Sequence record: KF055347
Length of the DNA: 64,000 nucleotides
DNA from: Escherichia phage JH2
Strand: one strand, 5' to 3'
The position numbers and the translations under genes are program-made. The first letter of the stretch is position 1, and every line of letters starts with the position of its first letter. The notes beneath the pieces were generated by a model. The model was given only the letters and a program-made list of their open reading frames with translations. It searched no databases and was not told where the DNA came from. This document shows, one piece after another, positions 3,805 through 15,986 of the stretch.

Positions 3805-4185
3805 TTAGTTAATTTTGAAAATTGTCACATAACCATCGCTCCCGATGATTTGTGATACCCCAGCTTTCTCTACTTGATAGCCCATATTTTCAAGATGGTA
3901 AACAGCATCATCGTAACCATATGCGCCACCCTGATAACGTCGCTTATCACATTTTATCAGGTTTTTACCGCGTCCAGCAAGTGCATTCAGTACGGCTTTT
4001 TCACTTGATAGTGTACCATCTATCATGGTTGCCGTGTAATGGTTGATTTTATTCCCATTAATATCATACTTAAAATTGAATGCGTGAACAATAATCAATT
4101 TACCGTTAAATTTTTCATCAAGTGACTTCTCCAGTGCGTTGCGGAAGTTGTCTTTATTGATGAATTTCGGTGCACGATAAGCCAT
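3805..4185 (-). CDS. hypothetical early protein
   Basis: 126-aa ORF. Confidence 0.5.
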   Translation of the reverse strand: MAYRAPKFINKDNFRNALEKSLDEKFNGKLIIVHAFNFKYDINGNKINHYTATMIDGTLSSEKAVLNALAGRGKNLIKCDKRRYQGGAYGYDDAVYHLENMGYQVEKAGVSQIIGSDGYVTIFKIN

Positions 4186-4273
4186 TTTAGAATCTCCTAG
4201 TTTAAGGTAAGTTAGTAAAGCTCTTTATCTGGGGCTTAAGATATCAGCTTTTAAGCCCCTTGTAAAGTACTTT
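4186..4273 (-). promoter_or_regulatory. early intergenic cassette type A
   Basis: repeat copy, ggggcttaagatatcagcttttaagcccc. Confidence 0.55.
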
Positions 4274-4480
4274 TTATATATCGTAATAGTAAACCGCTGT
4301 CTGTTTTATATGTCGCTTTGTATTCTTTGTTAGGTAGCAATTAGAGTTAATTGCCGTTTCTACATAGTTGCAATAATCAGCTTCTGATATTCTACGCCAT
4401 GCGCCGCACACTTGCATATAAAAACGTTTTGCCTTTGTGTTAACGTTGGTTGTAACCATCAATTCGCGACTGTACATCAT
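4274..4480 (-). CDS. hypothetical early protein
   Basis: 68-aa ORF; first gene downstream of the repeat-rich non-coding region. Confidence 0.4.
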   Translation of the reverse strand: MMYSRELMVTTNVNTKAKRFYMQVCGAWRRISEADYCNYVETAINSNCYLTKNTKRHIKQTAVYYYDI

Positions 4481-4987
4481 TTTGGATTCTCCAGTTTAGG
4501 AAGTGGGCTTGCTTGCCCGTCTGATGCAAATATTAGATAACCATACTCAAAGAGTCAATAGGAATTTTAAAAATATTTTTGCAAAAAACTGTAATGAAAC
4601 GGGCGCACGCGACTACCACAAAACAGAACTACAATCAAGAATTATTTTTCAATCCGCTACAAATTTTTCTGTTGACTTTTCTTTTCGGATGTGGTAGCCT
4701 TGTGAGAAATGGCGACATCCCCACCTACACCCACCTACCTGCACAATTCTAAAATGATTTTTCTTGCCCGACCTGAGTGGGTTCTGCACGTTTTGAAAAT
4801 GAAAAAGCTCTTTGGAGATTACCTGCACAGTTTGAAAATGAATTTTCTCTTTGGAGTTCAAAATTCTCTCTACAGATTTCTGTCCAGAACTCTACCTGCA
4901 CAATCCTGAAATGAAAAAACCCTCCTTACCTGAAAAATTTACCAGATAAGAAAGGCTTAGTCTATTGTGAATATTCTACAGAGTTTC
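4481..4987. repeat. ~500-bp non-coding region with four direct repeats of CTGCACA(A/G)TT(C/T)TGAAAATGA
   Basis: repeat copies begin near 4737, 4784, 4821 and 4894; only short low-complexity ORFs; a GGGC..GCCC hairpin near 4504-4517. Confidence 0.5.
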
Positions 4988-5773
4988 TTAGTTCTTTGCG
5001 TCTAAGAAGGTAACTTCCGGTGAAGAGAAAATTTCCTCGATATCCTCATCAGTTCTTGCATAGATATACGTATCTGCATCACTGCCAAATGTTACTGCAA
5101 TCTTGTGATTGCTCTTCGACAGGTGGGTAACTAGGGCGTTACTTAGAGACATCTTTTCAACCGGAGGGTTACTTTGATGTATCTTGCCTTTTCTTCGTCT
5201 GAAGAGGGTAACTGCATCATCAGTGAACACTACTACACCTGCAAAGTATTCTGGTTCACAGTAGTTCTTCCAACCTGAGCGTAACTTGTGGTACATCTCT
5301 CCTTCGTAGACATACAGATACACATCTACACTCTTCATCAACTGATTAATGATAACGGTGACGGCTTGAGGGTCTAGCCCACCGATACCTGCACCAATCA
5401 TAGGTAACCCAACTTTCTTCAACTGATTAACTTCACAGTATCTGTTAAGCTGTTTCAAAGATGACTCTAAAGCACTATATCGGGCATCTTTACCAGTCTT
5501 AAGCTGAGTGTAAAGATTAGCTATACGGCCTTGTTCTAAACGTGCTACAGAGAAATTGCCTAGTAAATTTTCACAGGGTTTGTTACGAATGCCACCTGCA
5601 AACAGGTAAACTTCTGTGTTAGTATCATACACTTTTGGATAACGCTTAGAAATAGTTGCTGCAATACCTGCACCCATGAAATTCATACAGTTGCAACCAT
5701 GACCAATGATATCAAATTTACCTTTATCAAAGGCGTCAAAGATATCACCTTTGATGATTTTTACAATACCCAT
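4988..5773 (-). CDS. putative macro-domain (ADP-ribose binding/processing) protein
   Basis: 261 aa; N-terminal DIIGHGCNCMNFMGAGIAATISKRYP resembles the macro-domain Gly-rich ADP-ribose binding loop; C-terminal half unassigned. Confidence 0.4.
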   Translation of the reverse strand: MGIVKIIKGDIFDAFDKGKFDIIGHGCNCMNFMGAGIAATISKRYPKVYDTNTEVYLFAGGIRNKPCENLLGNFSVARLEQGRIANLYTQLKTGKDARYSALESSLKQLNRYCEVNQLKKVGLPMIGAGIGGLDPQAVTVIINQLMKSVDVYLYVYEGEMYHKLRSGWKNYCEPEYFAGVVVFTDDAVTLFRRRKGKIHQSNPPVEKMSLSNALVTHLSKSNHKIAVTFGSDADTYIYARTDEDIEEIFSSPEVTFLDAKN

Positions 5774-6010
5774 TTAACATCTCTCCCAAGATTCTTTATC
5801 TTCTGAAGGTTTTACACGCTGTCCTTCATGGTCTACCCAGATACATCCACAACCTTCACAGATTACTGGCATTGCATAGCCAGCTTTAAAGTCGTCTTCA
5901 GTGATAAGACCTTTTAAGTCACCTGTATCACGTCCGAACATTTCGATAGCACAGTCTTTACAGAAGTCAGCCATGAATAATTGCCTCTTGAATGATGATG
6001 CCTTTACCAC
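5774..6010 (-). CDS. hypothetical Cys-rich protein
   Basis: 78 aa with CKDC..CEGCGC. Confidence 0.4.
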   Translation of the reverse strand: MVKASSFKRQLFMADFCKDCAIEMFGRDTGDLKGLITEDDFKAGYAMPVICEGCGCIWVDHEGQRVKPSEDKESWERC

Positions 6011-6200
6011 AACGACTTTTAAAATCTTCTAATGGTTCAGAGAAGAAGTTACGGAAATGGTTACTGCACTCACGTTTCATCACCTTCTTGTAAGTTAACG
6101 CATCTTCTCCTGCAAACGGAACGACTTCATGTCTCCCTTTGAATACTGCTGAACTTACAATCTTACGTGTCTTTTTATCTCTGGCTAGTATTACTTTCAT
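5967..6200 (-). CDS. hypothetical protein
   Basis: 77-aa ORF; 44-nt overlap with the downstream ORF. Confidence 0.35.
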   Translation of the reverse strand: MKVILARDKKTRKIVSSAVFKGRHEVVPFAGEDALTYKKVMKRECSNHFRNFFSEPLEDFKSRCGKGIIIQEAIIHG

Positions 6201-6507
6201 AGTTTACCTTCTCAGTTAGCTCATACAAATCAACATGCTCAATACTATCAATGTTGATACCAATCTTTTTGAAGCGTTCTATCACTTCGTTGTCAGTCAT
6301 CCATATCAGACACCAATGATTGTGGATGGATTCTTCAAGAAGGTCAACACAATCTTTAAAAGTCTTTGTGTCACTTCTTGTTCCGACTACTGCGATTGTC
6401 CCATACAACCACTTACCATTACCATATGATACTTGTGCTACGCCAACTTCTTTATCTTTCTCGTAGTAAACGGCTACAAAGTCTCTTCCATTAATCTGCA
6501 TAGTCAC
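6175..6507 (-). CDS. hypothetical protein
   Basis: 110-aa ORF. Confidence 0.45.
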   Translation of the reverse strand: MTMQINGRDFVAVYYEKDKEVGVAQVSYGNGKWLYGTIAVVGTRSDTKTFKDCVDLLEESIHNHWCLIWMTDNEVIERFKKIGINIDSIEHVDLYELTEKVNYESNTSQR

Positions 6508-6773
6508 TTCCTCGTTTTAAGAACTGCTAAGATTTCTTTAGAGTCTGGTAAGAACCATGTGTAGTGATTCTCTTTGATTTCTGGATGAGTGTCAACCTTT
6601 ATTTTACACTCTTTACCAACATGCTTAAGCTGTGCTGTGACACCTTGCATAAAGATATGACACATCACGTTGTCCATAATGGTTGGTGAGAAATCAACCC
6701 GCATATAAGTTTCTTTTGGTCGTGGTAGCAGTAAGTACCCTTCTACATAGAAAGTGTCTTCATTCTCTGTCAT
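6504..6773 (-). CDS. hypothetical protein
   Basis: 89-aa ORF, 4-nt overlaps at both ends. Confidence 0.45.
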   Translation of the reverse strand: MTENEDTFYVEGYLLLPRPKETYMRVDFSPTIMDNVMCHIFMQGVTAQLKHVGKECKIKVDTHPEIKENHYTWFLPDSKEILAVLKTRK

Positions 6774-7039
6774 TGCTGTTTGTTTCCTAATAAAATCATA
6801 TCAATAAGGTTATTAGCTTTGATTGTGCACTGGTAAAAACCATCACGATAAAACTCAAGGGCTGCTGCCACATCACTACCAGTATTACCTTTGACAGTGA
6901 ATCTTGATTCTTCTTGAGTATACTTGTCACTCTCACTTACTTGGGAGTTTTTGAATGTACTGTTCACTTTGCTCGTTGAACACCCTGACATAATTATCAG
7001 TAACACAAACATTATAAAACTCTGGCTTAGTCTTTTCAT
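6770..7039 (-). CDS. putative o-spanin (outer-membrane lipoprotein, Rz1-like)
   Basis: 89 aa; signal peptide with lipobox IMSG-C; overlaps the 3-prime end of the upstream TM protein gene out of frame. Confidence 0.45.
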   Translation of the reverse strand: MKRLSQSFIMFVLLIIMSGCSTSKVNSTFKNSQVSESDKYTQEESRFTVKGNTGSDVAAALEFYRDGFYQCTIKANNLIDMILLGNKQQ

Positions 7040-7332: not shown

Positions 7333-7812
7333 TTAACTGAGGACTTTAGCAAGGATATTCGCAGCCATCGAAGAAGCTTTTGCAGCAGCAACTACGCCAG
7401 CTTTGACAGTGCCACCCTTAATAGCAGATACCGTTGCAGCATCAGTAAAGAGATAAGTGATTGTTTTAGAACCACTTGTAAAGGAAAGCATAAGAGTAGT
7501 TTCCAGATTGAAAGAGCGATACGGAGCACCTTCTTTAACGATACCTTCAGCACCTAACTCTGAAGCCTTACCCATATCATAGATAGTCATCAGGTTTTCT
7601 TTGTGTGCAGTCGTTGAACCAGCACCTTTTACGTGCTTCTTAACATTTAACAATGCACGATATTCACGAATGCTGCCATCAGCTTTTACATTAACAGCAC
7701 GGAAAATTTTACCTTCAAAGTTACCTTGAATCATTTTACGAACTACTTCAGATTTGTTTGCCGTATCGTCCAGTGCTACCGTAATGATATTGTTCATAAG
7801 TTTTTCTCTCAA
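7333..7812 (-). CDS. hypothetical protein
   Basis: 159-aa ORF. Confidence 0.5.
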   Translation of the reverse strand: MREKLMNNIITVALDDTANKSEVVRKMIQGNFEGKIFRAVNVKADGSIREYRALLNVKKHVKGAGSTTAHKENLMTIYDMGKASELGAEGIVKEGAPYRSFNLETTLMLSFTSGSKTITYLFTDAATVSAIKGGTVKAGVVAAAKASSMAANILAKVLS

Positions 7813-8504
7813 TGTTTAACTAACATGGTTTTAATGTGTGGAAGGATTCTGTTTACCTTCTGAACATTCTTCTCTGTATCTTCTATAAAGCATACTATAT
7901 TAAAGTAAGGAAGAATGCAAGACTGTATCATCCTCACTTTTAAACTTTCTGCACTTATAGAGTTAGTTCCAAAACCACGCATAAAAAGCATGTAATCATG
8001 CTCTATGTTATGCCTTAAAAACATCTCAGTAGGTATTCTCTGAGATTCACCTCTAGCTGTCAAGAGTCCAATGGCAGCATGATTAGCAATTGCATCAATA
8101 ATACTAAAAACATATGTTGGTTTTGCTCTTACAGAGTCAAGAAGATTAGTGTACTGTGAGAATGACCCATCAGTCAATTCCGTTGAGCAATCTTCGTGAT
8201 TAAAATTTGTAAGAACACCATCAATATCTGCTAAGATGAGGTTACCTTTTTCTACAAGGTCTTTATTGACTATGACTAAACTGTCACGTCTTACACCTAT
8301 AGATTGTCCGGTCTCTTTGTCCACAACGTTCACAATTGGTTCTGATGTGTGAAACTCTTCAAGTGAACATACAACTTCTCTTGCAGTATCTTCAAAATCT
8401 CTGCACTGTTCTGGAGTCCATACACAGTAATCGAGACCTAGCTCATGAGGATGCAAGTCGTAAGCATGACACAGTACTTCATCAGACTTTCTTAATTTTT
8501 TCAT
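7809..8504 (-). CDS. HAD-superfamily hydrolase-like protein (putative phosphatase)
   Basis: 231 aa; LILADIDGVLTNF matches the HAD DxDG(T/V) phosphoryl-acceptor motif. Confidence 0.45.
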   Translation of the reverse strand: MKKLRKSDEVLCHAYDLHPHELGLDYCVWTPEQCRDFEDTAREVVCSLEEFHTSEPIVNVVDKETGQSIGVRRDSLVIVNKDLVEKGNLILADIDGVLTNFNHEDCSTELTDGSFSQYTNLLDSVRAKPTYVFSIIDAIANHAAIGLLTARGESQRIPTEMFLRHNIEHDYMLFMRGFGTNSISAESLKVRMIQSCILPYFNIVCFIEDTEKNVQKVNRILPHIKTMLVKH

Positions 8505-13261: not shown

Positions 13262-15043
13262 TTAAAGCTGCTTGTCAATATTATTTCGAATATCACCAAG
13301 AGTTGTGTAACCAAACTGCTCAGAGTCACTAAAGACTAAGCGTAAAGTACAAGCTGGATGTTCAAGCGCATCTGCAAAGCTCTGGAAACCATAGCCATCT
13401 ACAGCTTTCAGCTTATCACCATCCCACATAGGCGCTACACCACCAAAAGCAGACTTCTTAACACCACTATCTGTTTTAGGGTCTTTTGCAAGCATAATCT
13501 CTTTGCCACCAATACTTGCAAGAGTTGCTTTGACAGCAAATGCAAAGGTGTCACGAGTCATATACTGGTAAGTGTAAGAGCCTACACCAAATACTACGTT
13601 AGAGCTTGCAAAACCCATTTCATACAAACGCTTCAGGATTTCGTTTGCACGTTCCAACGTGATAGAGTCACCATAGATAAGTCCAATGTGCTCATCCAGT
13701 ACCTTAAAACCTTTAGAGTTGATAGTCCCTCCAAAGATGTTATACAGGGTCTTAATAGCCCCATCAATCTCTGCTACAGGACGTGTTACAACGTTTGCAG
13801 AACCAACCATATAAGCATTTTTCAACAGCACTGTATCAGCAACTTCAAAGTCTTCTCTGTCAACAACCATTTCGTAGCCTTCTGACAGTAGCCATCCAGC
13901 AATACCATAGTTGATATCCTCAAGCTTCATGTTCAGAACAGCATTCAGCATTGTGTCGCTGGCTTCCAGCTTGCTTAGGTGTTCGTAATAAGCCTTTTTA
14001 GCACACTCTAAGTGGATTGCTTTATAACCTGTGACAATATGTACAGGGTCGCCAGAGTCAGGACGAATTACCAGTTTGCCATCACGTTCCATAATCTCTT
14101 TACGAAGTGCTGGTAAGATTTCTGATACAGTTCTCCAGAAATTATAAGTGTCTGAAACAACACTTGCAATACCTGTTGGGTAAGTTTCTGTTAAGAAACG
14201 ACGGAAGGTTTGTAACTCACCTTTAAAGCGTCTTTCTTCTTCAATCAACTCATTACCACCTTCCCAAGCAATGTTTGCACACATTACAGAGTGTTCGGTG
14301 GCTGGTACAGAGCTACCAATATCAGAGATTGGGTAGGACTGTCCATAGATGCGTTTAGCTGTATACACAGCAGGGAAGCTATCAGTTCCTTTAAAGCTGG
14401 TTAAGTGGCCTACAGCGTTAAATGCGTCATCGGTAAAGCCGGACATACCACGCATAGCAAAATCATGGCACTGATAAGGCAAATGCAAGTCGTTGTCACA
14501 AGTAAGGTCAGACCACTTCTTACAGATACGTTTGTAGTGCAATGCAATAGTTGCAATGGTACAAGCCTTCCAAATCTCAGCAGAGAAAGCATCTTCCAGA
14601 TACCCAGCTACCCAATGGAAACCTGAAACAGTGTTCTGGAAGACAATCATTGGTACACGCATAGGGACAACTGTGCCTTCTTCTACAGCGTATACTTCAA
14701 CTGGTAGATAACCTAAATCGTGGAGTGCTTCCCAATGTTCTCGACCAATAGCATCTTTACCCAGAACACCATTCATGACTTCTAAGATTTCGTCAATTGC
14801 TTCTTTTTTGTCACGTTCAAAGAAGGTAGCGTTCCAGTGGTCTATCAAGTAATCTTTAACAAAGCGTTGAATACCAAAAGCCACTACACCGTCAATTGCT
14901 AAAGGGCTGTTAAACCATTTATCGCTACGTGGTGTCAGGTTAAACATCAAGTACTCTGTTGCACTAGGGTACTGGTAAACATGACCAGATTTGTAAGCAT
15001 CTGCATTAAGACCTGCTGGTACTGCGTAAAGTGACTTACTCAT
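13262..15043 (-). CDS. nicotinamide phosphoribosyltransferase-family protein (NadV-like; possible Namat-type enzyme)
   Basis: 593 aa; family-level resemblance to NAMPT/NadV; encoded directly next to a PRPP-synthetase-family gene. Confidence 0.7.
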   Translation of the reverse strand: MSKSLYAVPAGLNADAYKSGHVYQYPSATEYLMFNLTPRSDKWFNSPLAIDGVVAFGIQRFVKDYLIDHWNATFFERDKKEAIDEILEVMNGVLGKDAIGREHWEALHDLGYLPVEVYAVEEGTVVPMRVPMIVFQNTVSGFHWVAGYLEDAFSAEIWKACTIATIALHYKRICKKWSDLTCDNDLHLPYQCHDFAMRGMSGFTDDAFNAVGHLTSFKGTDSFPAVYTAKRIYGQSYPISDIGSSVPATEHSVMCANIAWEGGNELIEEERRFKGELQTFRRFLTETYPTGIASVVSDTYNFWRTVSEILPALRKEIMERDGKLVIRPDSGDPVHIVTGYKAIHLECAKKAYYEHLSKLEASDTMLNAVLNMKLEDINYGIAGWLLSEGYEMVVDREDFEVADTVLLKNAYMVGSANVVTRPVAEIDGAIKTLYNIFGGTINSKGFKVLDEHIGLIYGDSITLERANEILKRLYEMGFASSNVVFGVGSYTYQYMTRDTFAFAVKATLASIGGKEIMLAKDPKTDSGVKKSAFGGVAPMWDGDKLKAVDGYGFQSFADALEHPACTLRLVFSDSEQFGYTTLGDIRNNIDKQL

Positions 15044-15089
15044 ATTTTATATCTCTCTCAAAATGGGGCTTTTAAGCCCCTATAAAGTT

Positions 15090-15986
15090 TTAATCAAGGT
15101 TTGCTACAGTAACTTGGGCATAATGTGTTAAGCCACGGTCTTTAGCTTCCCCTAAAGAGTTTGTAGTGTAGATGTGGTCAATACCATTGTCAAGTAAGTT
15201 TTCAACACCTTTAGAGAAGATACCATGTGTTACATAGAGTTCCACACGTTTTGCACCTGCTTCACGAAGATGTTTAGCTGCTTCTATGAAGGTTCGACCA
15301 CCATCACAGATATCATCCAGAATCATGACGGTTTTATCTGTCAAATCAACATCATCAAGGATTCGCATACCAGTAATTTCACCAGTCTTAAGGTTACGTA
15401 CTTTAGACATTGTGATGTATGGCTTATCCACCTCTTTAGCAGTCTCTTCAGTCTTCTTAGCTGCACCTGCATCTGGGGCTACCAAGAAATCAATGCGTGG
15501 GTCACTTGCAAAGTGTGCTGCCACATCTTTTTGCTTCATGCTCTGAAAGCACTTAAATAAGTTTTCTGCAACATTACTGTGAGGGTCAAGAGCACATACT
15601 GCATCAAAGCCCATTGCATTAACGAGGTTGGCAAAAGCTTTCAGTGCTGCTGAATCACCTTTGAACATATGGCGGTCATATCGAGCATTCGGTAAGAACC
15701 CGAAAACAACGGTTTTCATCGCTGATTTATATGGAACAAGACTGTCAATGGCATCCTTAGCCAAAGCTAATGCAAACAGTGTATCTTTATCATATCCCTG
15801 CACAGTAAGTATAACATTGTCAATCTTACCAGCATTACGCTCAGTAAACTTAACAAAATCTTCAGAGAAGTTTCCACCAATTTCTCCAGATGGGAATTGG
15901 ATGATATTAAATTTTTCTGTGTGGAAGAATTTCTCTTGTGCGGTGACAACGGCTTCAATAATAGTTTTCATAGTTTTCTCTCTCAA
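15090..15986 (-). CDS. ribose-phosphate pyrophosphokinase-family protein (Prs-like; possible Adps-type enzyme)
   Basis: 298 aa; FPSGEIGG resembles the Prs FPDGE motif; VMILDDICDGGRTF is a PRPP-binding loop. Confidence 0.7.
   Translation of the reverse strand: MREKTMKTIIEAVVTAQEKFFHTEKFNIIQFPSGEIGGNFSEDFVKFTERNAGKIDNVILTVQGYDKDTLFALALAKDAIDSLVPYKSAMKTVVFGFLPNARYDRHMFKGDSAALKAFANLVNAMGFDAVCALDPHSNVAENLFKCFQSMKQKDVAAHFASDPRIDFLVAPDAGAAKKTEETAKEVDKPYITMSKVRNLKTGEITGMRILDDVDLTDKTVMILDDICDGGRTFIEAAKHLREAGAKRVELYVTHGIFSKGVENLLDNGIDHIYTTNSLGEAKDRGLTHYAQVTVANLD

What the first reader, a model, noticed from the sequence alone, without database searches (positions are those of the whole stretch)
4988..5773. 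Macro-domain-like protein as a possible ADP-ribose-handling counter-defence factor
The N-terminal DIIGHGCNCMNFMGAGIAATISKRYP segment resembles the Gly-rich ADP-ribose binding loop of macro domains, fused to an unassigned C-terminal half. Macro domains can reverse ADP-ribosylation or process ADP-ribose-derived signals. With the NAMPT/Prs pair, this would make two ADP-ribose/NAD-related functions in one phage segment. The motif match is by eye only.
Basis: inference. Interest (0 to 1): 0.5.

Follow-up and report, generated by a model that had tools for sequence, protein, structure and literature searches.

The report
Phage macrodomain enzyme, likely anti-DarT
This Felix O1-like phage gene really does encode a macrodomain (ADP-ribose-removing) protein. 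It belongs to the same phage family as two recently described enzymes that strip ADP-ribose off phage DNA to defeat the bacterial DarTG2 defence, so it is a new member of a known kind, with an extra tail domain of unknown role.

Summary
Window 4988..5773 (minus strand) is an intact 261-aa ORF. Its first ~156 residues are a macrodomain by three tests: Pfam PF01661 scores 29.7 bits against a cut-off of 22, a PDB profile search gives E = 5e-17, and a confident AlphaFold2 model (pLDDT 90.9) matches TARG1, DarG and Poa1p (Foldseek E = 1e-10, TM 0.8).

The window is a Felixounavirus. The protein falls in PHROG 335, usually mis-annotated "phosphatase". That family also holds T4 Tk.4 (34% identity) and PhiKZ gp104, both recently named AdfM, which counter the DarTG2 defence. 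The only hits in the PADLOC defence-protein and NCBIfam libraries are the DarG macrodomain.

The catalytic lysine of TARG1 and DarG is replaced by an invariant Gln (Q90), as in SCO6735. SCO6735 cleaves thymidine-linked ADP-ribose on DNA.

The most likely function is an early-expressed DNA ADP-ribosylglycohydrolase that reverses DarT2 modification. This rests on homology and was not tested.

The C-terminal ~105 residues are a real domain under purifying selection (dN/dS 0.18). It has no match in Pfam, the PDB or the viral structure library, and no homologue outside this fusion among 1.84 billion proteins. Its role is unknown.

The nearby "NAMPT/Prs" pair matches the known NARP1 NAD+-rebuilding operon. 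Verdict: ordinary to moderately interesting.

The parts
4988..5773 (-). Complete CDS, 261 aa plus stop: two-domain macrodomain protein (PHROG 335)
   Evidence: ORF list. PHROG 335 E = 8e-113. Intact and the same length in 20 related contigs.
5306..5773 (-). N-terminal macrodomain, residues 1-156 (TARG1/DarG/SCO6735 class, Tk.4/AdfM-type)
   Evidence: Pfam PF01661 29.7 bits against cut-off 22. Foldseek TARG1 E = 1.4e-10, TM 0.81. PADLOC DarG 5e-14 and NCBIfam DarG 1.4e-13. 34% identity to T4 Tk.4.
5660..5701 (-). Loop-1 / active-site motif H25-G-C-N28-C-x3-M-G-A-G-I-A38. N28 corresponds to SCO6735 N27 and PhiKZ AdfM N23; H25 corresponds to SCO6735 H24.
   Evidence: Invariant columns in the family alignment. 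Alignment to solved and characterised macrodomains. Mutant data in PMC9411070 and PMC13309987.
5504..5518 (-). Invariant N86-L-Y-T-Q90 motif. Q90 occupies the position of the catalytic Lys of TARG1 (K84) and DarG (K80), and of the essential Gln85 of SCO6735.
   Evidence: PMC9411070: Q85A abolishes activity.
5372..5404 (-). Loop-2 diphosphate-binding motif P124-M-I-G-A-G-I-G-G-L-D134. The TARG1 D125 position is Gly131 here.
   Evidence: Invariant P124, G127 and G129. Alignment A4.
4991..5305 (-). Linker helix plus C-terminal beta-rich orphan domain, residues 157-261. It has six strands and a C-terminal helix. It includes a basic hairpin, R192-RRKGKIH-199, and the conserved segment SNPPVEK.
5781..5786 (-). 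Shine-Dalgarno GGAGAG, 7 nt upstream of the ATG. It lies inside the end of the upstream ORF.
   Evidence: Read directly from the sequence.
5774..6010 (-). Upstream 78-aa Cys-rich (CxxC...CxGCGC) ORF, PHROG 2210, unknown function. Its stop codon abuts the macro ATG, so the two are probably co-translated.
4917..4958 (-). Terminator-like hairpin followed by a T-run, 30 nt downstream of the stop codon
   Evidence: Consensus scan only.
13262..15986 (-). Context only, same strand, 7.5 kb upstream: a 'NAMPT'-like gene (13262-15043) and a 'Prs'-like gene (15090-15986). This is the probable NARP1 operon (Namat + Adps).
   Evidence: Pfam NAPRTase/NAMPT_N and Pribosyl_synth. The pair is conserved in 250 Felixounavirus-type records. 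NARP1 was shown in the Felixounavirus Bas63.

Best explanation
The gene encodes an early-expressed, phage-borne 'orphan antitoxin'. It is a macrodomain ADP-ribosylglycohydrolase of the Tk.4/AdfM family.

Proposed mechanism: when a host DarTG2 toxin-antitoxin system is triggered, DarT2 ADP-ribosylates thymidines in single-stranded phage DNA and blocks replication. This protein binds the ADP-ribose moiety through loop 1 (H25-GCN28-C...MGAGIA) and loop 2 (P124-MIGAGIGG). It then hydrolyses the thymidine-ribose bond, releasing free ADP-ribose and restoring replicable DNA.

Catalysis most likely follows the SCO6735-type route. Gln90, held by Asn28, positions the distal ribose, and a backbone-held water acts as the proton donor. 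This differs from the Lys-dependent route of TARG1 and DarG.

The C-terminal ~105-residue domain is a lineage-specific accessory module. It may target the enzyme to its substrate or bind a partner. Its role is unknown.

Shown here: the ORF, the macro fold, family membership, conservation of the active-site residues, and purifying selection on both domains. Inferred: ADP-ribose binding, hydrolase activity, DNA-thymidine specificity, and the anti-DarTG2 role.
For: Fold and family:
- Pfam Macro scores above its cut-off.
- The AF2 model has pLDDT 90.9.
- Top Foldseek hits are TARG1, M. tuberculosis and T. aquaticus DarG, and Poa1p.
- The only hit in the PADLOC defence-protein library is DarG (5e-14).
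- The best NCBIfam hit is antitoxin_DarG, macro part only (1.4e-13).
- The best PDB hit with the family profile is SCO6735 (5e-17). SCO6735 cleaves DarT-made thymidine-ADPr DNA (PMC9411070).

Link to characterised proteins:
- The protein shares PHROG 335 with T4 Tk.4 (1.3e-65) and PhiKZ gp104 (8e-43).
- It is 34% identical to T4 Tk.4 over the whole macrodomain (E = 2e-23) and shares the HGCNC, NLYTQ and P-x-IGAGIG motifs.
- A T4 tk.4 deletion is sensitised to DarTG2.
- PhiKZ AdfM removes DarT2 ADP-ribose from DNA in vitro, and its N23A mutant is impaired. N23 aligns with N28 here.

Active site and selection:
- Q90, N28 and H25 are invariant in 28 homologues. They align with SCO6735 Q85, N27 and H24.
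- dN/dS of the macrodomain is 0.076.

Context: the gene lies in the early region alongside a second anti-defence module, NARP1.
Against: - No biochemical or genetic test exists for any Felix O1-like member. No paper in the searched library links Felixounavirus to DarTG or macrodomains.
- Identity to the characterised homologue is only 34%.
- The T4 evidence is genetic and comes from a preprint. No Tk.4-type (Gln) phage member has been assayed in vitro. The in vitro data are for the Lys-type PhiKZ protein.
- Macrodomains of this class can also act on protein Asp/Glu-ADPr, O-acetyl-ADPr, ADPr-1''-phosphate or RNA ends, so substrate specificity cannot be read from sequence.
- One relative (P0020) is fused to a cyclic-phosphate-processing cREC_REC domain, which hints at RNA-end chemistry for part of the family.
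- The extra C-terminal domain is absent from Tk.4. It may redirect the function.
Confidence: 0.6

Rival explanations
1. It is a general ADP-ribose-metabolite or RNA-end processing enzyme. Examples are an ADP-ribose-1''-phosphate phosphatase like yeast Poa1p (the origin of the 'phosphatase' annotation) or an O-acetyl-ADPr deacetylase. Such an enzyme would clean up by-products of RNA repair or NAD+ consumption and would not reverse DNA modification.
For: - Poa1p is among the top structural hits (E = 3e-9, TM 0.75).
- T4 Tk.4 is annotated 'contains A1pp phosphatase motif'.
- A polynucleotide-kinase-like gene lies 2 kb upstream.
- A family member (P0020) is fused to the cyclic-phosphate-processing cREC_REC domain.
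- NARP1 in the same region consumes free ADP-ribose.
Against: - The phosphatase annotation is a transferred motif label, not an assay result.
- The only genetic phenotype known for the family is DarTG2 sensitivity.
- Sequence profiles rank DarG, SCO6735 and TARG1 at or above Poa1p.
- The T4-type PNK/ligase repair pathway does not generate Appr-1''-p (established knowledge of the T4 Pnk/Rnl pathway).
Confidence: 0.12
2. It reverses ADP-ribosylation of proteins or RNA rather than DNA. It would counter another ART-based defence, or a toxin such as an mRNA- or protein-modifying ART, or it would tune a phage-encoded ART.
For: - TARG1 and SCO6735 also de-modify Asp/Glu-linked proteins.
- TARG1 is the top structural match.
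- The added C-terminal domain could provide a different target specificity.
Against: - No ADP-ribosyltransferase is annotated in the first 45 kb of a close relative's record. No ART domain was found in the flanking ORFs tested.
- TARG1's catalytic K84/D125 pair, used for ester hydrolysis, is absent: the positions are Q90 and G131.
- The characterised phage homologues act against DarT2.
Confidence: 0.13
3. It binds or degrades ADP-ribose-derived immune signals (gcADPR, His-ADPR and the like) from TIR/Thoeris-type systems. It would act as a sponge or signal hydrolase.
For: - Macrodomains can bind His-ADPR; ThsA of type II Thoeris does.
- The phage carries another NAD+/ADPR-directed counter-defence, NARP1.
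Against: - There is no similarity to known anti-Thoeris proteins, and PADLOC gives no ThsA-macro hit, only DarG.
- The hydrolase-type residues (N28, Q90) are invariant. That fits an enzyme acting on a glycosidic ADPr linkage.
- No member of this family has been linked to Thoeris in the papers read.
Confidence: 0.05

Closest known systems
T4 Tk.4 = AdfM (anti-DarT factor Macrodomain), NP_049723.1; PHROG 335
   Same: Same PHROG family. 34% identity across the whole macrodomain (E = 2e-23). The same signature motifs are present: HGCNC, NLYTQ (Gln in place of the catalytic Lys) and P-x-IGAGIG. Both are early-region genes of virulent E. coli myoviruses.
   Different: Tk.4 is a 155-aa single-domain protein. 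The window protein carries an extra ~105-aa C-terminal domain and a ~10-residue insertion around residues 58-70. The anti-DarTG2 phenotype is shown for T4 only.
PhiKZ gp104 AdfM (chimallivirus DarG2-like antitoxin)
   Same: Same PHROG 335 and the same macro class. The conserved active-site Asn (N23) aligns with N28. It is a phage-borne orphan antitoxin that removes DarT2 ADP-ribose from DNA in vitro.
   Different: gp104 is a true DarG-type macrodomain with the P-T-K...W motif, and it hits M. tuberculosis DarG at E = 9e-25. The window protein has Gln at that position and hits DarG only at ~1e-13 with profiles. gp104 is imported into the phage nucleus, and Felix O1-like phages have no such compartment.
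Streptomyces coelicolor SCO6735 (PDB 5E3B)
   Same: It is the best PDB hit of the family profile (5e-17). It shares the Gln-for-Lys active site: Q85 aligns with Q90, N27 with N28 and H24 with H25. It cleaves thymidine-linked ADP-ribose on DNA, and Q85A and N27S mutants are inactive.
   Different: It is a bacterial cellular enzyme. It has a five-residue longer mobile loop with K89, which is absent here, and no C-terminal domain. Identity is about 22%.
DarG antitoxin of DarTG2 (NCBIfam NF048014; PDB 5M3I, 5M3E)
   Same: It has the same overall architecture: an N-terminal macrodomain followed by a second C-terminal domain. It is the only PADLOC hit and the best NCBIfam hit, with structural TM 0.78-0.80.
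   Different: The score is 50.8 bits against an equivalog cut-off of 250. Only model positions 2-153 of 338 match. The catalytic Lys80 and Trp83 are absent. The C-terminal domain is unrelated to DarG's DarT-binding domain by sequence. There is no adjacent darT gene.
Human TARG1/OARD1 (PDB 4J5Q/R/S)
   Same: It is the top structural match (E = 1.4e-10, TM 0.81-0.85) and has an identical MGAGIA loop. It can also reverse DarT DNA ADP-ribosylation.
   Different: The K84/D125 catalytic pair is replaced by Q90/G131. Identity is about 24%.

Membership tests
Macro domain superfamily (Pfam PF01661) | Profile score at or above the Pfam gathering threshold | tested here: met
   29.7 bits against a cut-off of 22, E = 6.7e-7, profile positions 2-117 of 118. 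The precomputed Pfam assignment is the same for the homologues.
Macro domain superfamily (Pfam PF01661) | Three-layer alpha/beta/alpha macro fold | tested here: met
   The AF2 model has pLDDT 90.9. Foldseek against the PDB gives 238 hits at E <= 0.001. All 50 listed hits are macrodomains or proteins designed on a macro scaffold. The top hit is TARG1, TM 0.81-0.85.
Macro domain superfamily (Pfam PF01661) | Binding of ADP-ribose in the cleft formed by loop 1 and loop 2 | not testable with these tools
   The loop motifs are conserved, but binding needs ITC, DSF or a co-crystal.
ALC1-like / TARG1-DarG class of macrodomains | Closest sequence and structure neighbours are TARG1, DarG, SCO6735 and Poa1p, rather than the MacroD, PARG or MacroH2A types | tested here: met
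   Viral MacroD-type domains (nsP3, Nsp3) rank lower.
ALC1-like / TARG1-DarG class of macrodomains | Catalytic lysine (TARG1 K84, DarG K80) | tested here: not met
   The position is an invariant Gln (Q90), as in SCO6735 Q85. The TARG1 D125 position is Gly131.
SCO6735-type (Gln) thymidine-ADPr DNA hydrolases | The Gln85, Asn27 and His24 equivalents are present | tested here: met
   Q90, N28 and H25 align and are invariant in 28 homologues. Their functional importance is taken from PMC9411070.
SCO6735-type (Gln) thymidine-ADPr DNA hydrolases | Extended mobile loop carrying Lys89; hydrolysis of dT-ADPr | tested here: not met
   The five-residue loop extension (GMKTGS) is absent. Hydrolysis itself is not testable here.
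DarG antitoxin (NCBIfam NF048014 equivalog) | Full-length match above the curated cut-off, including the C-terminal DarT-binding domain | tested here: not met
   50.8 bits against 250, and only positions 2-153 of 338 match. In PADLOC, positions 5-146 of 329 match.
DarG antitoxin (NCBIfam NF048014 equivalog) | Encoded next to a darT toxin gene | tested here: not met
   The flanking ORFs have no Pfam hit. Relatives annotate only hypothetical proteins there.
Phage AdfM / Tk.4 family (PHROG 335) | Membership of the same profile family as T4 Tk.4 and PhiKZ gp104 | tested here: met
   PHROG 335 scores: window protein 8e-113, T4 Tk.4 1.3e-65, PhiKZ gp104 8e-43. Pairwise comparison with Tk.4 gives 34% identity, E = 2e-23.
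Phage AdfM / Tk.4 family (PHROG 335) | Protects the phage from DarTG2 and removes DarT2 ADP-ribose from DNA | not testable with these tools
   Shown for T4 genetically and for PhiKZ both genetically and in vitro. No data exist for Felix O1-like phages.
PH-domain-like fold (considered for the C-terminal domain only) | Significant profile or structural match to PH or PH-like domains | tested here: not met

The most novel reading that the evidence does not exclude
The orphan C-terminal domain may be a second, non-catalytic neutralisation module. It could bind DarT2 (or another ADP-ribosyltransferase toxin) directly, or it could clamp single-stranded DNA. In that case Felix O1-like phages would have independently assembled a two-pronged 'hydrolase + binder' antitoxin analogous to full-length DarG, built from an unrelated, fast-evolving domain of a fold not yet seen in solved structures.

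Five observations fit this reading and none proves it:
- The architecture parallels DarG.
- dN/dS is 2.4-fold higher than in the macrodomain.
- The domain diverges much faster between genera.
- It carries a conserved basic hairpin.
- It has no detectable homologue anywhere else.
Probability: 0.2. Interest if true: 0.5.

Novelty: new member of a known kind. Interest (0 to 1): 0.3.

Why it matters
The practical value is a better annotation. Hundreds of Felix O1-like genomes, including therapeutic and biocontrol phages of E. coli and Salmonella, label this gene 'phosphatase' or 'hypothetical'. It should read 'macrodomain ADP-ribosylglycohydrolase, AdfM/Tk.4 family (putative anti-DarTG2)'.

This predicts that these phages resist DarTG2-carrying hosts. 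It also shows that one early region holds two counter-defences centred on ADP-ribose: the macrodomain, which releases ADPR from DNA, and NARP1, which turns ADPR back into NAD+.

The Gln-for-Lys active site shared with Tk.4 and SCO6735 suggests that most enterobacterial phage AdfM proteins use the water-mediated SCO6735 mechanism rather than the DarG mechanism.

The only truly open element is the lineage-specific C-terminal domain.

Tried and rejected
- **C-terminal domain related to the cREC_REC domain of the macro fusion P0020.** hhalign probability is 0.2%. Rejected.
- **C-terminal domain in other architectures.** An exhaustive HMMER search of 1.84e9 representative proteins found only the same fusion, two fragments of it, and one spurious repeat-adhesin hit, P0030.
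- **C-terminal domain fold in viral predicted structures (BFVD).** Only its own orthologue from phage SUSP2 was found.
- **AFDB50 fold search.** The library was not available.
- **True DarG orthologue.** Rejected: the score is far below the equivalog cut-off, there is no C-terminal DarT-binding match, no Lys80 or Trp83, and no darT neighbour.
- **Regulator of a phage-encoded ADP-ribosyltransferase (as with T4 Alt/Mod).** No ART is annotated in the first 45 kb of the relative mio or found in the tested neighbours. This is not excluded for the rest of the genome.
- **Literature on Felix O1 or Felixounavirus macrodomains or DarTG.** Nothing relevant was found.
- **Locating Bas63 by guessing an accession.** The guess failed; MZ501111 is Bas51.
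- **Interdomain interface.** The AF2 coordinates are not exposed, so the interface could not be examined.
Full report
**1. The observation**

Window 4988..5773 holds a 261-codon ORF on the minus strand, ATG to TAA. The upstream 78-codon ORF ends in TAA immediately before the ATG, and a GGAGAG Shine-Dalgarno sequence sits 7 nt upstream. The gene is therefore part of a tightly packed, probably translationally coupled, minus-strand block. A terminator-like hairpin follows the stop codon.

The ORF is intact and of identical length in 20 related IMG/VR contigs. At least 80% of it is covered in 256 phage records.

**2. Where the window comes from**

Megablast places the region at 93-96% identity in Escherichia, Salmonella and Shigella phages of the genus Felixounavirus (Felix O1-like, Ounavirinae). 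In those records the gene is annotated 'putative phosphatase', 'macro domain-containing protein' or 'hypothetical protein'. It lies in the early region, among many small hypothetical genes, upstream of a 500-bp non-coding gap. On the same strand are the spanins, a PNK-like gene, rIIB/rIIA and the 'NAMPT/Prs' pair.

**3. The N-terminal half is a macrodomain**

- Pfam PF01661 scores 29.7 bits against a cut-off of 22 (E = 6.7e-7, residues 25-141).
- phmmer against PDB sequences finds human TARG1/OARD1 first (E = 2e-6), then a Thermus protein, DarG, Poa1p and viral macrodomains.
- A profile of 28 homologues raises this to E = 5e-17. SCO6735 comes first, followed by TARG1, BT1257, Poa1p and DarG.
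- AlphaFold2 with that alignment gives a confident two-domain model (pLDDT 90.9, pTM 0.89).
- Foldseek against the PDB returns TARG1 (E = 1.4e-10, TM 0.81-0.85), M. tuberculosis DarG, Poa1p and T. aquaticus DarG as the best matches.

**4. Which macrodomain**

In the PADLOC defence-protein library the only hit is DarG (5e-14). In NCBIfam the best hit is the DarG antitoxin equivalog (1.4e-13). That match scores only 50.8 bits against a cut-off of 250 and covers only the macro part, positions 2-153 of 338.

In PHROGs the protein is a clear member of PHROG 335 (8e-113). T4 Tk.4 (1.3e-65) and PhiKZ gp104 (8e-43) fall in the same PHROG. Pairwise, the window protein is 34% identical to T4 Tk.4 over the whole macrodomain (E = 2e-23). 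tblastn finds such homologues in about 2,800 phage records.

**5. What is known about those relatives**

A 2025 preprint using transposon sequencing in T4 found tk.4 as the single gene required on a DarTG2-expressing host. A clean knockout confirmed it, and the authors named the gene adfM (10.1101/2025.11.20.689424).

A 2026 paper independently named PhiKZ gp104 AdfM. It showed that gp104 removes DarT2-made ADP-ribose from DNA in vitro, that N23A impairs this, that it neutralises DarT2 toxicity, and that its loss lets DarTG2 restrict the phage (PMC13309987).

DarT2 ADP-ribosylates thymidine in ssDNA. DarG2 reverses this with a macrodomain and additionally binds DarT2 through a second domain (PMC11825919; PMC9967889).

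**6. Active-site anatomy**

In the 28-sequence family alignment the invariant residues are H25, G26, N28, C29, M33, G36, A38, G72, N86-L-Y-T-Q90, P124, G127 and G129.

Alignment to characterised macrodomains gives these correspondences:

| Window protein | SCO6735 | Other |
|---|---|---|
| N28 | N27 | PhiKZ N23 |
| H25 | H24 | – |
| Q90 | Q85 | TARG1 K84, DarG K80 (catalytic Lys) |
| G131 | – | TARG1 D125 |

T4 Tk.4 has the same HGCNC and NLYTQ motifs. PhiKZ gp104 has the DarG-type P-T-K...W motif.

For SCO6735, Q85A abolishes and N27S nearly abolishes cleavage of thymidine-linked ADP-ribose. The proposed mechanism is water-mediated, with Gln positioning the distal ribose (PMC9411070).

The window protein and Tk.4 are therefore Gln-type members of the TARG1/DarG class. 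The residue equivalence was tested here. The mechanism is inferred.

**7. The C-terminal half**

Residues ~157-261 form a helix (158-167) followed by six beta-strands and a short C-terminal helix, modelled with pLDDT ~85-94 in the full-length context.

- There is no Pfam family. PH gives E = 0.064, below the cut-off.
- Predicted alone, the domain model is weaker (pLDDT 76).
- Foldseek against BFVD finds only the orthologue from phage SUSP2.
- A profile of the domain, searched with HMMER over 1.84 billion representative proteins, finds only the same fusion protein, two fragments of it and one spurious repeat protein.

The domain is nevertheless a real, selected coding region. Among 19 distinct Felixounavirus alleles, dN/dS is 0.18, against 0.076 for the macrodomain.

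Between genera it diverges much faster than the macrodomain: 46-54% against 74-79% identity in Suspvirus-level relatives, and 11-19% against 42-47% in Pectobacterium-phage proteins. Homology of the domain to the Pectobacterium-phage proteins is only weakly detectable (hhalign E = 2e-4, probability 45%).

The domain is mildly acidic (pI 5.8) against pI 9.1 for the macrodomain. It carries a basic hairpin (RRRKGKIH) next to its best-conserved segment (SNPPVEK).

Its function is unknown. A substrate-targeting or toxin-binding role, parallel to DarG's second domain, is a hypothesis only.

**8.

ORFs 13262-15043 and 15090-15986 do carry NAPRTase/NAMPT_N and Prs-type domains. The pair is conserved across about 250 Felix O1-like records.

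In the Felixounavirus Bas63 (taxonomy) this operon was shown not to make NMN. It pyrophosphorylates free ADP-ribose (Adps) and condenses it with nicotinamide (Namat) to rebuild NAD+. This is the NARP1 pathway, which counters NAD+-depleting defences (10.1101/2024.02.11.579819).

I did not align the window genes directly to Bas63, so orthology rests on genus-wide conservation.

No ADP-ribosyltransferase or DarT is annotated in the first 45 kb of a close relative's record or detected in the neighbours tested. This argues against a role in tuning a phage-encoded ART in that region.

**9. Explanation and rivals**

The best-supported reading (about 0.6) is an early phage DNA ADP-ribosylglycohydrolase that reverses DarT2 modification, that is, an AdfM.

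The rivals are:
- a metabolite or RNA-end processing enzyme of the Poa1p type (about 0.12; it is supported weakly by the historical annotation, the nearby PNK-like gene and a cREC_REC fusion in one relative);
- reversal of protein or RNA ADP-ribosylation (about 0.13);
- binding or degradation of ADPR-derived immune signals (about 0.05).

None can be excluded without assays.

**10. Novelty and verdict**

The macrodomain identity is already in public annotation, and the family has two characterised members, so this is a new member of a known kind. Three points go beyond the existing record:
- the family-level re-annotation, from 'phosphatase' to AdfM-type;
- the Gln-type active site shared with Tk.4 and SCO6735;
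- the lineage-restricted orphan C-terminal domain.

Interest is modest (0.3). The most novel reading not excluded is that the C-domain is an independently evolved toxin- or DNA-binding module (probability about 0.2).

Noticed in passing
window 4480-4988: A ~500-bp non-coding gap lies downstream of the macro gene. It holds 3-4 direct repeats of about 30 nt (TACCTGCACA[A/G]TT..GAAAATGA..., starting at 4736, 4784/4820 and 4893). A gap of similar size is present in relatives pEP20 and mio. The repeats could be a promoter or regulatory array for the next gene block. No significant sigma-70 match was found.
   Followed up: partly
window 5774-6010 (-): A 78-aa Cys-rich ORF (CxxC ... CEGCGC, Zn-ribbon-like) has its stop codon abutting the macro ATG. 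It belongs to PHROG 2210 (unknown function, E = 2e-40) and has no Pfam hit. It is possibly co-expressed with the macrodomain protein.
   Followed up: partly
window 13262-15986 (-): The 'NAMPT' and 'Prs' genes correspond to the operon shown in the Felixounavirus Bas63 to be NARP1 (Namat + Adps), which rebuilds NAD+ from ADP-ribose and nicotinamide. The common GenBank annotations (nicotinamide phosphoribosyltransferase, ribose-phosphate pyrophosphokinase) are therefore probably wrong in function. In several relatives an HNH homing endonuclease is inserted in or near this pair.
   Followed up: partly
P0020 (metagenomic protein): A macrodomain of the same subfamily is fused to Pfam PF20274 cREC_REC, the cyclic-phosphate processing receiver domain. 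This is a different C-terminal partner from the one in the window (hhalign probability 0.2%). It suggests that some family members work in RNA-end or cyclic-phosphate chemistry.
   Followed up: partly
window 4000-7000 compared with relatives (H3, H5, H11): Several close relatives span about 3.9 kb where the window has 3.0 kb, and the match splits into 2-3 pieces. This indicates a ~0.9-kb insertion or deletion polymorphism (extra small ORFs) in this early region.
   Followed up: no
window 7809-8504 (-): A 231-aa ORF is annotated 'polynucleotide kinase' in relatives, but it has no Pfam hit at E <= 0.01. The annotation may rest on weak similarity.
   Followed up: no
T4 NC_000866 58352-58534 and 58819-59205 (L024): The RefSeq product names 'molybdopterin-guanine dinucleotide biosynthesis protein MobD' for mobD.4 (60 aa) and 'starvation-inducible transcriptional regulator' for rI.-1 look like name-driven mis-annotations.
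   Followed up: no
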